From a virus (lineage: Duplodnaviria > Heunggongvirae > Uroviricota > Caudoviricetes): 64,000 nucleotides of DNA. This document shows, piece by piece, positions 9,049 to 34,291 of this stretch. The notes under the pieces are model-generated. The model ran no database searches. It was not told the origin of the DNA and was given only the letters and a program-made list of their open reading frames with translations. Positions within the stretch are counted from its first letter, which is position 1. Each line of letters starts with the position of its first letter. Location of the stretch: the IMG/VR virus record IMGVR_UViG_3300020576_001396, positions 1 through 64,000 of that record; one strand, written 5' to 3'. The position numbers and the translations under genes are program-made.

Positions 9049-9235
9049 AACCAGGTCAATTCTAATAGACAAGGAAATATTCGATGAATATCGTAAAATG
9101 GAAGATACAATATATTTTTTAGGTATACGTATCTATCAGAAGAATTACGTACAAAATATCGATTATAAACAAGCTCAATTGGAGAATAAATCTATCGGCT
9201 TTGCTAAATCAAATCAAAATGAAAAAACAAAGTAG
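9023..9235 (+). CDS. Hypothetical protein
   Basis: 70 aa ORF. Confidence 0.3.
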   Translation: MIKKIMRRETRSILIDKEIFDEYRKMEDTIYFLGIRIYQKNYVQNIDYKQAQLENKSIGFAKSNQNEKTK

Positions 9236-9413
9236 TAATCGAATTAAACGAAAGAATTTAAATTCTCGTTTAAGAGCTAAAAAAGCTAACAAACATAAAG
9301 GTCAAAGTTTCGTTAAGAAAGTTATGGCAGATAAAATTGTCGTAAACGACTCAGTGAAACCAACTTCAAAGCACATCTGGCCAAATCAGGCCCAACCTAA
9401 AGGAGTATTTTAA
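9219..9413 (+). CDS. Small, highly basic protein. The start is chosen at the AAATCAAATCAAAATG motif rather than the track's non-ATG start at 9201.
   Basis: MKKQSSNRIKRKNLNSRLRAKKANKHKGQSF... K/R-rich N-terminus, loosely ribosomal-protein-like. Confidence 0.4.
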   Translation: MKKQSSNRIKRKNLNSRLRAKKANKHKGQSFVKKVMADKIVVNDSVKPTSKHIWPNQAQPKGVF

Positions 9414-9419
9414 TAGTAT

Positions 9420-9629
9420 ATGATTTTTATCATTACACAACACATTCTACCATTCATTATCGAAATCAAATCGATAATTGGTGAATTTGAAAATACTTAT
9501 CACATCAAGCCTGTGAATCAGGTAATACCTTCGAATCAAATCAAGGTTAAAGAAGCTTTATCCCGAATAAGAAAGCGAAAGTTGATTAAATACTGTTATG
9601 CCTCAAGACAAGGCGTTGGGCAGAGTTAA
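9420..9629 (+). CDS. Hypothetical protein
   Basis: 69 aa ORF. Confidence 0.3.
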   Translation: MIFIITQHILPFIIEIKSIIGEFENTYHIKPVNQVIPSNQIKVKEALSRIRKRKLIKYCYASRQGVGQS

Positions 9630-9709
9630 CACTTTATATTTTACATACTAATTAGGGATAAATACAAAAAATTGGGTACCTACTATAAATATTAGTGGGT
9701 ACCCTTAAC

Positions 9710-9948
9710 GTGGAATTAGCTCAGTCGGTAGAGAGCGTCAACTTATATCTCTGAAAACAAATGTATACAACACTTATAGGCGAAGAGCTAAAAATAGATG
9801 TTGTAAACCTCGCGGAGTAACGGGCGGGATAATGATAAGGATTAGGCCAATCAAAATCATTATAGCAACACGGAACAGTCATTCAATACTATAACATGAA
9901 TGTAAGAGAGAACGTTGAAGGTCGGGGGTTCGAATCCTCCATTCTACA
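9710..9948 (+). tRNA. Split tRNA gene whose anticodon loop is interrupted by a roughly 165-nt insertion. It is either an intron-containing tRNA or an insertion-disrupted tRNA.
   Basis: 5' part 9710-9742: acceptor GTGGAAT, U8A9, D-arm GCTC-AGTCGGTAGA-GAGC, anticodon-stem 5' strand TCAAC. 3' part 9914-9948: GTTGA, variable AGGTC, T-arm GGGGG-TTCGAAT-CCTCC, acceptor ATTCTAC pairing 7/7 with the 5' strand, discriminator A. The insert ends TCTCT...AGAGA can extend the anticodon helix. The anticodon could not be assigned. Confidence 0.55.
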
Positions 9949-10155
9949 CGATGTTATTCGTTTGTACTTTATTTACAGTTTAGTTTGGACGCGGGTTCGA
10001 CTCGATGGGTCGGCTATGTAGTAATACATAGTACAAATTATGGATGAATTCAGGGAAAACTAAAACAACCCACTGTATAGTGAGTTGTCATGTCAATCCT
10101 GAGCCAAGCATGCAGAGCATGAAGGTGCAGAGACTACTGGAGTATAGCGATATAC

Positions 10156-10683
10156 TTAATTACCAGCTAGAGCGTCCATCTCCTTATTTATTAAGGATGA
10201 AGAGATAGTCCGGGATTTAACAAGTTTTCTTAACTTGTCCTTCGAAAGAAGGTTTTTGTGAGCAAGTCTATGACAATTAGGACACAGTGTAATAAGATTA
10301 TTAAGAGTATGAGTTCCACCTTTACTAAGTAATTTTATATGATGTATATCCCTAGAGGATTCTTTCCAACCACATGCCTCACAAGGTAAGGTAGGTAAGA
10401 TATACCTAAAGAAATACACTATATCTTTATTATTAGTCTTGGAAATCAATATTCTGTAATATTTTGTTTTACATTTGTTAGAACAATATTTAGATTTTGT
10501 GTTAATAGATTGATAGTTAATTCCACAAGTTAAACATTTACATTTCCTTAAAGGTTTTGTAGAATTATAATGTTTACGTTGACAGGATAAACCACAATAT
10601 ATAGCATTACCTCTATTTATTTCTCTATTGTCTGCATTAAATTCTTGTTTACAATGCAAACATTTCTTAACAGTTGTTTTCAT
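10156..10683 (-). CDS. Free-standing HNH homing-type endonuclease with N-terminal zinc-finger repeats
   Basis: 175 aa. HHIKLLSKGGTHTLNNLITLCPNCHRLAH HNH motif and several CxxC pairs. Lies about 200 bp from the split tRNA. Confidence 0.8.
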   Translation of the reverse strand: MKTTVKKCLHCKQEFNADNREINRGNAIYCGLSCQRKHYNSTKPLRKCKCLTCGINYQSINTKSKYCSNKCKTKYYRILISKTNNKDIVYFFRYILPTLPCEACGWKESSRDIHHIKLLSKGGTHTLNNLITLCPNCHRLAHKNLLSKDKLRKLVKSRTISSSLINKEMDALAGN

Positions 10684-10823
10684 ATATACTTATACGTATA
10701 TGGAGCAGAGAAGTTACATAAAACAGTTAAAAAGTGTTAATATTTCCAGCCCGCCAGCTCCACTAAATAAAATATTAACCCGCCAGTTATTGTTTTAATT
10801 GTTGTTGTTTTGTTAGTTTGCTT

Positions 10824-32121: not shown

Positions 32122-32141
32122 TAACTGATAATATTACGAGT

Positions 32142-32795
32142 ATGTTATATACTATAACCCCCGATATACAGAAAAAAGATGTAAGTAATCGGTATATGTC
32201 GACTGGAATTCACAATGATTGTGAACTAGTCTCCATAGAATATAAAAAAACAGATAAAGGTAGTGAGCTTATAGCCTTCTATTTTGAAAATGCTTTTCAA
32301 GAAAAGCTTAATCATACAGAATGGCGTGTAATGCCTACTAAAGATATCAACACAATGGGAGAAGCTGAATCTAAGATATACCTTAGTTTAGTAACTGCCC
32401 AGATTAGGCGTATCAATGCTATAGCAACCACATTCATCTCGGAAGAGGCGTTCAGAAAAGTTAAAGGTAATACCTTTGAAGAGTTCTGTACTAACGTGAT
32501 TGCAGCTATTGGTGAATCCTATAAAGGTGTAAAGGTTCGTATTAAAGTAGTTTACGATAAACGTAACTTTACCGCACTTCCATCGTATACCAATTACGAA
32601 TGGATTGAACTCATGACTGTCCCTGTTGAAGATTCTAAAATTAAGATTCTTCCTAAAGACAAGATGACCAAATCCGCACCTAAGAATTTAGCAGGTGCTG
32701 ACGAAAAAGAGAATGAAATAGAAATTGAATCCATCACTGTTAAAGAAACTACTATAAACGTAGCGCCTCAAACAGAAGATGATTTACCCTTCTAA
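32142..32795 (+). CDS. Hypothetical protein
   Basis: 217 aa ORF followed by a terminator. Confidence 0.5.
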   Translation: MLYTITPDIQKKDVSNRYMSTGIHNDCELVSIEYKKTDKGSELIAFYFENAFQEKLNHTEWRVMPTKDINTMGEAESKIYLSLVTAQIRRINAIATTFISEEAFRKVKGNTFEEFCTNVIAAIGESYKGVKVRIKVVYDKRNFTALPSYTNYEWIELMTVPVEDSKIKILPKDKMTKSAPKNLAGADEKENEIEIESITVKETTINVAPQTEDDLPF

Positions 32796-32851
32796 TCATA
32801 TAATGCCTAGTAAAGCCTCTTCCAGTAGGAACGTAACTAGGTAAGTGAAAC

Positions 32852-32878
32852 GGGGCTCGAAAGGGCCCCTTTTTATTT
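32852..32878 (+). terminator. Rho-independent terminator
   Basis: GGGGCTC-gaaa-GGGCCCC followed by TTTTTATTT. Confidence 0.55.
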
Positions 32879-32894
32879 ACTAATCAAAATCAAA

Positions 32895-33278
32895 ATGAAA
32901 AAAGTAATAACAGGTTTTTATAATACAGAAATACTAACAAAAACAAAACAAAAAGCTTTTATGGAAGAAGCTATCTTTTTAAGTTATAAAACTATCGTAG
33001 AATCAAAATACGTTAGAGAGAGTTCAAGAACGACAGAGCCTGATATAAGTATTAAAAAAGCTCTAAAAATATGTCACTCTTTAAAAGCTGTAGATAGAAG
33101 TATACAATTTGGAATGTTAGAACCTTATGGAGAAGTAAGTTTAATTACAACTTACTTTAAACATCCTACTATAAAAGATACTATCTATAATGACAAGGGA
33201 TGGCTACTACTATATTGTTATTTAACAATTGAAAATCTTGATAAACTTGCAAAGAAATATAATTTAATTAAAACCTAA
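32895..33278 (+). CDS. Hypothetical protein
   Basis: 127 aa. Start context AATCAAAATCAAAATG. Confidence 0.45.
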   Translation: MKKVITGFYNTEILTKTKQKAFMEEAIFLSYKTIVESKYVRESSRTTEPDISIKKALKICHSLKAVDRSIQFGMLEPYGEVSLITTYFKHPTIKDTIYNDKGWLLLYCYLTIENLDKLAKKYNLIKT

Positions 33279-33289
33279 ATCAAAATAGA

Positions 33290-34291
33290 ATGTCTAAAAA
33301 AAGAATATTTAATGAAGAATCTCTGAAACGTTTTATTAAACGTGACTCTCGTTCTTTACTCGAAATTGCTGAGTATTTCAACGTAACTCCAAAAGAGATA
33401 AACAAGTTGTTACTTACAATGAAAGAAAATAAATACAACATACTTGAAGATTCTAGTCCTATGATTGCATTAGGTACTGATATGAATACCGGTGTTGTAA
33501 CTCATCCGTTTGATCCACGTATGTGGCAGGGAGATACTCTTAAATTTGGATTCTCTTCAGATAATCACATGTGTAACAATAATAGCAGGGAGGATGTAAA
33601 TAATCTTCTGTATGATATTTTTGCATCTGAAGGAATTGAAGTTGTATATAACGGAGGTAATTGGATTGATGGAGAACATCATTTCAATAAAAATGAAATT
33701 TTTATACGTGGATGTACTAATCAATTAAAGTACTGTGCGAAAAACTATCCTTATCGTAAGGGTATTATAACGAAATTTATAGCTGGAGACGATCATGAAG
33801 GTTGGTATGTCCAGCGTGAAGGTATTAATGTGGGTGAATATCTTGTAAAGCACCGTAGAGATTTAGGTATGAATGACCTTGAATATCTCGGATACGGTGA
33901 AGCAGATATTTTACTTAATGAACCTGATCAAAAACACGAAAGTTGGTTAAGAGTATTACATCCTGGAGGAGGTTCAGCTTATGCATTATCGTACACAATG
34001 CAGAAATTAGTTGAAAGTTACCAAGGAGGAGAAAAGCCAACAATTATATTAGCAGGACATTACCATAAACTTGATTATTCTTTTCCTCGTGAAGTACATG
34101 CCATCCAGTTGGGTACTACTTGTGATCAAACATTGTTCATGAGAAAGAAAAAGATACAAGCCATGGTTGGTGGTGGAATCGTGGAAGCACGTAGAGCCGC
34201 TGATGGTAGTATTAATCGAGTAAAAGTAGAATTTATTACTTTCTACGATAAGTCTTTCTATATTGGTAAAGATAAATACTTTAAAGGATAA
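33290..34291 (+). CDS. Calcineurin-like metallophosphoesterase (Mre11/SbcD-like nuclease)
   Basis: 333 aa. Motifs FSSDNH, AGDDHEGW and AGHYHKLD match the DxH / GDxxD / GNH(D/E) / GHxH phosphoesterase signature order. Confidence 0.7.
   Translation: MSKKRIFNEESLKRFIKRDSRSLLEIAEYFNVTPKEINKLLLTMKENKYNILEDSSPMIALGTDMNTGVVTHPFDPRMWQGDTLKFGFSSDNHMCNNNSREDVNNLLYDIFASEGIEVVYNGGNWIDGEHHFNKNEIFIRGCTNQLKYCAKNYPYRKGIITKFIAGDDHEGWYVQREGINVGEYLVKHRRDLGMNDLEYLGYGEADILLNEPDQKHESWLRVLHPGGGSAYALSYTMQKLVESYQGGEKPTIILAGHYHKLDYSFPREVHAIQLGTTCDQTLFMRKKKIQAMVGGGIVEARRAADGSINRVKVEFITFYDKSFYIGKDKYFKG

What the first reader, a model, noticed from the sequence alone, without database searches (positions are those of the whole stretch)
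9200..33292. Conserved AAATCAAAATG start context shared by about a dozen plus-strand genes
The heptamer ATCAAAA directly abuts the ATG of genes starting at 9219, 10956, 12152, 12991, 13479, 14420, 18589, 21254, 26160, 32895 and 33290. Three of them share an identical 15-mer AATCAAATCAAAATG. Bacteroidetes lack Shine-Dalgarno sites, but so exact a motif is more than a general A-rich leader. It could be a phage-specific translation-initiation enhancer, the end of a shared short leader, or a recognition site for a phage factor. It also supports correcting three track start sites.
Basis: seen in the sequence. Interest (0 to 1): 0.6.

Follow-up and report, generated by a model that had tools for sequence, protein, structure and literature searches.

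The report
Bacteroidota-type start-codon leader, reused by phage
A short G-free leader, (A)AATCAAA placed right before ATG, really does recur at a subset of early genes of this crAss-like phage, but it is a sharp form of the Shine-Dalgarno-less start-codon context that Bacteroidota cells use themselves, not a phage-specific signal.

Summary
ATCAAA directly abuts the ATG at 7 of the 11 listed starts (9219, 10956, 12152, 13479, 14420, 26160, 32895). The other four are offset by 2 to 11 nt. Only two genes share the 15-mer; three share a 14-mer. Enrichment is strong: 8 ATCAAAATG against 1.1 expected, and 7 abutting starts against 0.08-0.31 in shuffles of the upstream regions.

The motif places adenines at -1..-3, -6..-8 and -11..-13, the published positive determinants of initiation in Bacteroidia. 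All genes here and in related phages show the same A peaks and no Shine-Dalgarno signal.

Of 121 matches, 96 are in Bacteroidota, and 81% of those sit at starts of ordinary cellular genes.

The motif is conserved at orthologous starts in five or six distant syntenic relatives, so it is under selection.

Best reading: the core of a short leader that acts in translation initiation on host ribosomes. It is over-used about ten-fold by this phage's early genes. It is not phage-specific. The proposed start correction at 18589 is refuted, and 14420 stays open.

Side finds: a phage bTHX homologue and a conserved structured ORF-free region of about 1.4 kb.

The parts
9207..9221 (+). AATCAAATCAAA|ATG, start of the 64-aa ORF 9219-9413. 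The motif lies inside the 3' end of the overlapping ORF 9023-9235.
   Evidence: An independent gene call uses the same start. The motif is absent at the L269 orthologue and partial in L272.
10950..10958 (+). ATCAAA|ATG, start of the 74-aa ORF 10956-11180, 24 nt after tRNA-Leu (10856-10931).
12140..12154 (+). AATCAAATCAAA|ATG, start of the 213-aa ORF 12152-12793, 21 nt after a tRNA (12043-12130).
   Evidence: In all 5 lineages compared (window plus 4 relatives) the orthologue keeps a tRNA 3' end, 25-30 nt, then ATCAAA(A)|ATG.
12982..12993 (+). AATCAAAAT|ATG (hexamer offset 2), start of the 163-aa ORF 12991-13482. It follows the terminator-like hairpin plus T run at 12941-12968.
   Evidence: (D4). 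No orthologue was found in the syntenic relatives.
13468..13481 (+). ATCAAATCAAA|ATG, start of the 189-aa ORF 13479-14048. It is embedded in the 3' end of ORF 12991-13482.
   Evidence: ATCAAA sits at offset 0 or 1 in all 7 sequences compared (window plus 6 relative loci, L269 and L270 being near-identical). The full 11-mer is kept in L269, L270 and L272.
14412..14422 (+). AAATCAAA|ATG at the second in-frame ATG (14420) of ORF 14378-15667. The first ATG (14378) has a motif-like context, ATAATCATAATCAAT|ATG.
   Evidence: M15 is invariant in 14 homologues. The motif is kept in L269, L270, L272 and L274, and is at offset 3 in L273.
26153..26162 (+). AATCAAA|ATG, start of the 89-aa ORF 26160-26429. 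It follows the terminator-like hairpin plus T run at 26113-26146.
   Evidence: The orthologue in L001 keeps AATCAAA|ATG while the rest of the spacer has diverged.
32882..32897 (+). AATCAAAATCAAA|ATG, start of the 127-aa ORF 32895-33278. It follows the hairpin plus T run at 32852-32878.
   Evidence: The gene is absent from the closest relative L001, where two ATCAAA copies lie 18 nt apart in the spacer.
33278..33292 (+). AATCAAAATAGA|ATG (offset 5), start of the 333-aa ORF 33290-34291.
   Evidence: L001 has aaatcaaaataaa|ATG and L004 has aaatccaaatcaat|ATG.
21236..21256 (+). AATCAAAATAATAAGCCA|ATG (offset 11), start of the 179-aa ORF 21254-21793. It follows the hairpin plus T run at 21203-21234.
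   Evidence: TTATTAAATCA(A/G)AAT is kept in L269, L272 and L275 at offsets of 3-11 from the ATG.
18556..18570 (+). AATCAAATTGTT|ATG (offset 5), start of the 144-aa ORF 18568-19002. It is one of three CAAAATCAAAT copies at 18533, 18553 and 18572.
   Evidence: D17. The ATGTCAAAA start is conserved in L269 and L272.
8867..8880 (+). AATCAAAAAAA|ATG (offset 4), start of the 56-aa ORF 8878-9048.
11154..11179 (+). AATCAAA 16 nt upstream of the ATG of the 284-aa Band_7-like gene 11177-12031. This is a weak, offset copy.

Best explanation
The motif is the core of a short (about 13-25 nt), G-free 5' leader or translation-initiation region of the kind used by Bacteroidota, whose ribosomes ignore Shine-Dalgarno sequences.

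The unit AAAUC, repeated once or twice and ending in AAA|AUG, places adenines at -1..-3, -6..-8 and -11..-13. These include the positions (-3, -6, -12, -13) where adenine raises initiation in Flavobacterium johnsoniae. [quoted passage not shown]

Shown here:
- the motif is anchored to start codons;
- it is conserved at orthologous starts across distant relatives;
- it occurs at cellular gene starts throughout Bacteroidota.

Inferred:
- it works at the RNA level on the host 30S subunit;
- the phage over-uses one near-optimal version at a subset of (probably early) genes. These genes start after terminators or tRNAs, or inside upstream genes, and so must recruit ribosomes on their own.
For: 1. 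Anchoring and enrichment at ATG.

2. The adenines match the published determinants A-3, A-6, A-12 and A-13 (PMC6847099; PMC7366714; PMC13000457). Six of the 7 abutting copies have A at both -12 and -13 (read).

3. The whole gene set shows the same profile without any G-rich SD. For the 51 + strand genes, A is 0.63-0.65 at -13..-11, 0.51-0.55 at -8..-6 and 0.57 at -3. The 51 genes without the motif and 303 genes of related phages still peak at -13..-11 and -3.

Of 121 matches, 96 are in Bacteroidota, and 78 of those (81%) open an ORF with an in-frame stop close upstream. Only 4 of 22 matches in other phyla do so. Ten downstream genes checked are ordinary cellular genes with full-length Pfam matches.

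5. In neighbouring Bacteroidota genes, ATCAAA is tied for second commonest -6..-1 hexamer (5 of 613). TC is the second commonest filler of A??AAA|ATG.

6. The motif is kept at orthologous starts in syntenic relatives with only 30-60% protein identity. This holds for the orthologues of 12152 (5 of 5 lineages), 13479 (7 of 7 sequences) and 14420 (5 loci plus an invariant Met), and for L001.

7. Two copies (9219, 13479) lie inside upstream coding sequence. None lies directly upstream of the five tRNA genes, although two tRNAs are directly followed by motif plus ATG. A transcription signal would be expected upstream of tRNAs too.
Against: - No functional test was possible.
- Published determinants explain the adenines but not the fixed UC at -5/-4.
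- The phage uses ATCAAA|ATG about ten times more often than the Bacteroidota neighbour genes (7 of 51, or 7 of 64, against 5 of 613).
- Relatives sampled around the DNA polymerase rarely use it (2 of 303). The host rule alone therefore does not explain the stereotypy.
- Predicted local RNA structure does not differ between motif and non-motif starts.
- At the 21254 orthologues the motif keeps its distance to the terminator tail rather than to the ATG.
- A conserved TAATCAAA also sits in the ORF-free region at 16761-16768 without a conserved ORF.
- The - strand genes (giant virion proteins) lack the motif entirely.
- The host is not identified directly.
Confidence: 0.75

Rival explanations
1. 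Module-boundary repeat. The unit [hairpin terminator or tRNA] - T-rich tail - AATCAAA - ATG is a short cassette at which small early genes are gained and lost by recombination, as with the PeSL cassettes of T4-type phages. On this view the stereotypy reflects copying rather than only selection for translation. It is compatible with the main explanation.
For: - Gene 32895 is absent from the closest relative L001 and is flanked by motif copies. The L001 spacer holds two ATCAAA copies 18 nt apart.
- Gene 12991 has no orthologue in the syntenic relatives. It sits between a terminator-plus-motif and the motif of 13479.
- The terminator tail plus motif forms a repeat family (D4 and D8).
- The motif cluster at 8.8-14.5 kb is the least conserved part of the block.
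Against: - There are only two insertion/deletion examples, and the shared repeat is 7-15 nt, short for homologous recombination.
- The flanks beyond the motif are not similar.
- The motif is conserved at fixed orthologous starts over long distances, which indicates function rather than recent copying.
- The same motif occurs at unrelated cellular genes.
Confidence: 0.12
2. Recognition site for a phage-encoded post-transcriptional factor, superimposed on the initiation region. The factor could be a translational repressor or activator, or an endoribonuclease, as T4 RegA and RegB act on early-gene initiation regions. It would mark a temporal class of genes.
For: - The motif is restricted to a subset of + strand genes and is absent from all 13 - strand genes.
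- The sequence is stereotyped well beyond the host average, including a fixed UC.
- Conservation is gene-specific across relatives.
- A conserved copy lies in a structured non-coding region.
- The phage encodes a ribosomal-protein homologue, bTHX.
Against: - No candidate RNA-binding protein was identified.
- The identical extended motif is common at cellular gene starts, so it cannot by itself discriminate phage from host mRNAs.
- Offsets vary from 0 to 16 nt.
- bTHX sits in the 30S head, away from the mRNA path (general knowledge of Thermus 30S structures).
Confidence: 0.08
3. DNA-level transcription signal: a promoter or initiator element for the injected crAss-type virion RNA polymerase, or a modified host polymerase, giving leaderless or very short-leader early mRNAs.
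For: - The motif lies in the presumed early or replication block.
- It often follows hairpins or tRNAs within 20-35 nt, leaving no room for a standard promoter.
- The host sigma-A -7 box TAnnTTTG is not enriched (88 against 78).
- The early promoters of crAss-like virion polymerases are unknown.
Against: - The spacing is rigid to the ATG, including inside upstream coding sequence.
- No copy lies upstream of any of the five tRNA genes.
- The same motif occurs at chromosomal Bacteroidota genes, which are not transcribed by a phage polymerase.
- In phi14:2, no common motif was found upstream of early transcripts.
- The hairpins carry T runs on the sense strand, as intrinsic terminators do.
Confidence: 0.05

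Closest known systems
Kozak-like, Shine-Dalgarno-independent initiation region of Bacteroidia (Baez et al. 2019, PMC6847099; Arpin et al. 2026, PMC13000457)
   Same: - A at -3, -6 and -11..-13.
- G-poor with no SD.
- Leader length fits the modal 23-nt 5' UTR of Bacteroides (PMC7366714).
- Found at cellular Bacteroidota gene starts.
   Different: - The published rule is a per-position adenine preference, not a fixed word.
- Here a specific word, (AAAUC)n AAA with UC fixed at -5/-4 and often at -10/-9, is reused.
- It is used about ten times more often than in the Bacteroidota genes sampled.
Shine-Dalgarno sequence
   Same: A short conserved element at a fixed distance upstream of the start codon that marks initiation sites.
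   Different: - No purine-rich GGAGG core.
- G content is 2.7% in -20..-1 of motif genes.
- There is no evident complementarity to the 16S 3' end.
- The motif abuts the AUG rather than lying 5-10 nt upstream.
A/C/U-rich bS1-dependent translational enhancers (TMV omega CAA repeats, CA multimers, T7 gene 10 epsilon). Recalled from general knowledge, not tested here.
   Same: G-free, CAA- or AAUC-type repeats in the leader that promote SD-independent ribosome binding.
   Different: - Those enhancers act at variable distance and mostly in addition to an SD.
- This motif is locked to the AUG.
- It occurs in a lineage whose ribosomes do not use the SD at all.
T4 RegA / RegB target sites in early-gene initiation regions. 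Recalled from general knowledge.
   Same: A short motif in the initiation regions of a temporal class of phage genes.
   Different: No cognate protein was found. The motif is shared with host genes.
PeSL cassettes (early promoter plus stem-loop) of T4-type phages. Recalled from general knowledge.
   Same: Repeated stem-loop plus expression-signal units between small, poorly conserved early genes. Two gene indels are flanked by copies.
   Different: No promoter is recognisable. The repeat is far shorter. The element is conserved at orthologous genes.
Middle promoter motif of phi14:2 and beta-crassvirinae
   Same: A conserved motif upstream of genes and tRNAs in crAss-like phages.
   Different: - That motif is tripartite and -35/-10-like.
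- It lies upstream of transcript 5' ends and also precedes tRNAs.
- This motif is a single A/C/T word at the ATG and never directly precedes the tRNAs.

Membership tests
Bacteroidia SD-less (Kozak-like) translation-initiation region | Adenine at -3 and -6 relative to the A of AUG | tested here: met
   All 7 abutting copies have A at -1, -2, -3 and -6. Across the 51 + strand genes, A is 0.57 at -3 and 0.51 at -6.
Bacteroidia SD-less (Kozak-like) translation-initiation region | A-rich tract at about -11 to -15 (A-12, A-13) | tested here: met
   Six of 7 abutting copies have A at -12 and -13; 13479 has only A-11. For all + strand genes, A is 0.63-0.65 at -13..-11. The peak persists in non-motif genes and in relatives.
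Bacteroidia SD-less (Kozak-like) translation-initiation region | No Shine-Dalgarno (G-rich) element upstream | tested here: met
   G is at most 0.16 at every position from -20 to -1. G is 2.7% in motif leaders.
Bacteroidia SD-less (Kozak-like) translation-initiation region | Used by cellular genes of Bacteroidota (host-type signal) | tested here: met
   The 20-mer matched 96 times in Bacteroidota out of 121 matches, and 81% of these are at gene starts. The downstream genes are cellular. The neighbour-gene profile is the same.
Bacteroidia SD-less (Kozak-like) translation-initiation region | Reduced mRNA secondary structure around the start | tested here: inconclusive
   Predicted pairing probability over -20..+6 is 0.38-0.43 for motif genes and 0.37 for others, with no significant difference.
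Bacteroidia SD-less (Kozak-like) translation-initiation region | Upstream adenines raise the initiation rate on Bacteroidia ribosomes | not testable with these tools
   This needs reporter, toeprint or ribosome-profiling experiments.
Bacteroidia SD-less (Kozak-like) translation-initiation region | The host is a member of Bacteroidia | tested here: inconclusive
   Support is indirect only: a crAss-like DNA polymerase, the initiation-region profile and the motif's taxonomic range. No host match was made.
Phage or host promoter (DNA-level transcription signal) | Position fixed relative to transcript 5' ends rather than to start codons, and also present before non-coding genes | tested here: not met
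   The motif is locked to the ATG, including inside coding sequence. It is absent directly upstream of 5 tRNAs. Transcript 5' ends themselves could not be mapped.
Phage or host promoter (DNA-level transcription signal) | Bacteroidetes sigma-A -7 box TAnnTTTG about 20-30 nt upstream of the start | tested here: not met
   There are 88 matches against 78 expected. Only 13440-13447 is suitably placed.
Shine-Dalgarno sequence | Purine-rich core complementary to the 16S 3' end, 5-10 nt upstream of the start | tested here: not met
   The motif is A/C/T only and abuts the ATG.

The most novel reading that the evidence does not exclude
The AAUCAAA leader is more than a good host-type context. It would mark a conserved regulon of early genes in this crAss-like lineage that is read by a phage-directed mechanism: an RNA-binding regulator or nuclease, or ribosomes altered by phage products such as the encoded bTHX homologue. 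The conserved copy in the adjacent 1.4-kb structured RNA could be part of the same circuit. Alternatively, the leader could serve as the junction at which early gene cassettes are exchanged.
Probability: 0.12. Interest if true: 0.6.

Novelty: new member of a known kind. Interest (0 to 1): 0.3.

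Why it matters
It shows that an uncultivated crAss-like phage follows, in an unusually sharp form, the Shine-Dalgarno-less initiation rules worked out in Flavobacterium johnsoniae.

It also shows that a specific word, (AAAUC)n AAA|AUG, recurs at gene starts across Bacteroidota. That is useful in three ways:
- for calling starts in Bacteroidota phages;
- as indirect host-phylum evidence;
- as a candidate strong 'ribosome-binding site' for Bacteroides and Flavobacterium engineering.

The unexplained part is the fixed UC and the ten-fold over-use at a conserved subset of early genes. 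This is a modest, testable question about whether sequence beyond the adenines matters for initiation. It does not reveal a new mechanism.

Tried and rejected
- Near-identical phage records: none found.
- Relatives through the 415-aa, 829-aa and Band_7 proteins in viral or metagenome contigs: none or unrelated. Syntenic relatives came only from the protein-homologue search followed by contig look-ups.
- Microdiversity: the second assembly, L267, is identical over the motif region, so it gave no information.
- Chance or composition: rejected by the shuffles.
- Host sigma-A promoter: TAnnTTTG is not enriched. The sigma-70 scan is below expectation.
- 'Unstructured leader' as the sole reason: no difference in predicted structure.
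- 'First gene after a gap' as the rule: 7 of 22 genes with a gap of at least 50 nt carry the motif, against 6 of 29 others. This is not a clear association (tallied by hand).
- Paralogy of motif genes or long shared leaders: upstream similarity stops at about 15-20 nt, and the motif-gene products have no Pfam family.
- Phage specificity: rejected by the genome scan.
- A bTHX homologue search in the large protein database returned only the query itself.
- The expected count of the 20-mer in genomes (tens at most) is my own rough composition estimate.

Full report
**What the window is.** The DNA polymerase at 27108-29096 is about 28% identical to those of crAss-like phages. Helicase, primase and exonuclease genes follow it on the + strand. 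Giant ORFs of 4255 and 1555 aa lie on the - strand. The same genome is on record as a 93.9-kb contig. The window is therefore a distant crAss-like phage. It has a + strand block at about 4.6-42.3 kb (small ORFs, tRNAs, replication genes) and - strand blocks on both sides.

**Checking the observation.** ATCAAAATG occurs 8 times against 1.10 expected.
- The 7 + strand copies all sit on the ATG of ORFs at 9219, 10956, 12152, 13479, 14420, 26160 and 32895.
- At the four other listed starts the hexamer is offset by 2 (12991), 7 (18589), 11 (21254) and 5 nt (33290).
- The 15-mer is shared by two genes, the 14-mer by three, and the 11-mer of the title by five.
- I found further offset copies at 8878, 11177 and 18568.

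Against a map of 51 + strand and 13 - strand genes:
- 17 of 62 sense-strand ATCAAA copies lie in the 30 nt before a start, which is 4.1% of the block;
- the 7 abutting copies compare with 0.08 and 0.31 in two kinds of shuffle, maximum 3 in 5000;
- 15 of 36 AATCAAA copies end within 20 nt of a start;
- no - strand gene has the motif.

The motif is real, non-random and concentrated at start codons.

**Anatomy.** Five motif genes follow a GC-rich hairpin with a T run, at 12941, 14333, 21203, 26113 and 32852. Two follow tRNAs by 21-24 nt. Two lie inside the 3' end of the preceding ORF. Leaders are almost G-free, 2.7% G against 11.7% elsewhere. Upstream similarity ends after 15-20 nt. The motif-gene products have no Pfam family.

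**What it matches.** In F. johnsoniae, adenines at -3, -6, -12 and -13 (with 0 as the A of AUG) raise initiation, and -11..-14 is A-rich (PMC6847099). The same holds for Bacteroides, whose modal 5' UTR is 23 nt (PMC7366714). The base at -3 stacks on 16S G693 (PMC13000457). AAAUCAAAUCAAA|AUG puts A at -1..-3, -6..-8 and -11..-13, which satisfies every determinant.
- The 51 + strand genes as a set show A at 0.63-0.65 for -13..-11, 0.51-0.55 for -8..-6 and 0.57 for -3, with G at most 0.16 throughout.
- The 51 genes without the motif, and 303 genes of related phages, keep the -13..-11 and -3 peaks.

The phage family as a whole therefore uses the Bacteroidota type of initiation region.

**Is it phage-specific? 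No.**
About 36-50 of 121 matches are at apparent gene starts, and some follow a terminator or a tRNA as here.
By record title, 96 of 121 matches are Bacteroidota (Flavobacteriales, Bacteroidales, Cytophagales, Chitinophagales, Sphingobacteriales), 3 are Ignavibacteria or unnamed, and 22 are other phyla.
- In Bacteroidota, 78 of 96 matches (81%) open an ORF with an in-frame stop close upstream. In other phyla, 4 of 22 do.
- Ten downstream genes are ordinary cellular genes with full-length Pfam matches: SusD, T9SS-sorted proteins, Mfa-like fimbrillin, HlyD and hydrolases.
- In 613 neighbouring genes of those loci, A peaks at -13..-10 and -3. ATCAAA is tied for second commonest -6..-1 hexamer at 5 of 613. 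TC is the second commonest filler of A??AAA|ATG at 8 of 64.

**What remains particular to the phage.** ATCAAA|ATG marks 7 of 51 + strand genes (7 of 64 overall), against 0.8% of the Bacteroidota genes sampled. Density is 1.1 per 10 kb against about 0.15. By my own tally of the contexts printed, TC fills nearly all A??AAA|ATG contexts in the window. Relatives sampled around the polymerase rarely have it, 2 of 303.

**Conservation.** Homologues of the 14378-15667 protein led to six syntenic loci, L269, L270 and L272-L275, with 30-60% protein identity.
- 12152 orthologues: in all 5 lineages compared there is a tRNA 3' end, 25-30 nt, then ATCAAA(A)|ATG.
- 13479 orthologues: in all 7 sequences compared ATCAAA is at offset 0 or 1. 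Three relatives keep ATCAAATCAAA|ATG, although the spacers differ.
- 14420: Met15 is invariant in 14 homologues. It is preceded by ATCAAA in the window, L269, L270, L272 and L274, and at offset 3 in L273. The 'conserved' peptide NQIKM is AAT CAA ATC AAA ATG read in frame.
- 21254 orthologues: TTATTAAATCA(A/G)AAT is kept, but at 3-11 nt from the ATG.
- Turnover also occurs. The motif is lost at the 9219 orthologue in L269 and gained at the 19029 (L273) and 19429 (L269) orthologues.
- In L001, the 26160 and 33290 orthologues keep the motif while the flanks diverge.

The motif is therefore under selection at particular genes of this lineage.

**Rivals.**
- *Promoter reading.* Against it: the motif is locked to the ATG even inside coding sequence; no copy directly precedes any of five tRNAs; it occurs at chromosomal genes; TAnnTTTG is not enriched; and phi14:2 early transcripts have no common upstream motif.
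- *Factor-binding reading* (RegA/RegB-like). Not excluded, but no factor is known and the motif cannot tell phage from host mRNAs.
- *Cassette-boundary reading.* It has two supporting indels: 32895 is absent in L001, and 12991 is absent in the relatives. Both are flanked by motif copies. This reading may add to the stereotypy.
- *Local structure.* Predicted structure does not distinguish motif genes.

**Start sites.** 9219 agrees with an independent gene call. 18589 is refuted: the MSK start at 18568 is conserved and residue 8 is Val in L269. 14420 remains open. Met15 and its motif are conserved, but so is the open 14-codon extension from 14378, which has its own motif-like context.

**Verdict.** This is a genuine, conserved start-codon leader. 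It is best explained as a near-optimal Bacteroidota-type initiation region that is over-used by a subset of this phage's early genes. It is a new member of a known kind and of modest interest.

Noticed in passing
window 8778-8915 (+) (ORF called from 8751): A 45-aa product, MGKGDGKTKRGKIFKKSYGRTRP..., is a homologue of ribosomal protein bTHX. It matches Pfam PF17070 at E 3.3e-6 and 27.4 bits, just under the 29.7-bit cut-off, over profile positions 1-25 of 27. It matches Thermus Thx full length at E 2.5e-4. The survey of virus-encoded ribosomal proteins (PMC6375957) does not mention THX in its text.
   Followed up: partly
window 16685-18058 (+); L269 12109-13526, L272 12098-13521, L273 12069-13438, L274 4927-6352, L275 8370-9857: An ORF-free region of about 1.4 kb is syntenic and conserved at the nucleotide level. 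Mean column identity is 60%, with many invariant blocks, among phages whose proteins in this region are only about 30-60% identical. Several hairpins show compensatory changes (3/5, 4/10 and 5/5 pairs). It contains a tRNA-like T arm at 17677-17694. No Rfam family matches at E<=0.1. It is probably a large structured non-coding RNA, comparable to the highly transcribed long intergenic regions of phi14:2.
   Followed up: partly
window 9987-10232 (+) and 10156-10683 (-): A group I intron matches Rfam RF00028 at 62.2 bits (gathering score 50, E 4.8e-15). It was seen only in the permissive scan. It overlaps a - strand HNH endonuclease ORF (PF01844), the only - strand gene inside the + strand block.
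   Followed up: no
window 9710-9745 and about 9905-9945 (+): Two halves of a tRNA-like gene are separated by about 160 nt at the anticodon loop: acceptor and D arm, then T arm and acceptor, with complementary acceptor strands. Neither ARAGORN nor Rfam calls it. The T arm at 9920-9937 is identical to that of tRNA-Thr at 19919-19936 (D2, 60).
   Followed up: no
window 12043-12130 (+): Rfam finds an 88-nt tRNA (45.8 bits) that ARAGORN misses. A tRNA 3' end at this position is seen in the syntenic relatives L269, L272, L274 and L275.
   Followed up: partly
window 10824-10854, 12941-12971, 14328-14358, 31250-31280 (+): A family of terminator-like hairpins, GGGG.GTGCTTGCAC.CCCC followed by TTA(C/T)TTTT. 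The GCTTGC loop also recurs in hairpins of the relatives and of the ORF-free region (D4, 81, 84).
   Followed up: no
window 16761-16768 (+): TAATCAAA is conserved in 5 of 6 lineages near the 5' end of the ORF-free region and is not followed by a conserved ORF. It is the only conserved copy of the motif that is not at a start codon.
   Followed up: no
window 18533-18582 (+): Three copies of CAAAATCAAAT lie 20 and 19 nt apart. They straddle the start of gene 18568 (D17).
   Followed up: no
window 14071-14118 (+) and orthologues: The non-motif gene 14116 has its own conserved start context, TTTACGAA(A/T)|ATGGAT, in L269, L270 and L274. Conserved leaders are therefore not limited to the ATCAAA class.
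   Followed up: no
L267 (JGI 3300033069, Ga0364485_11338): A second assembly is identical to window 2152-22187 and then diverges inside the 829-aa gene 21796-24285. This may be a variable region or an assembly break.
   Followed up: no
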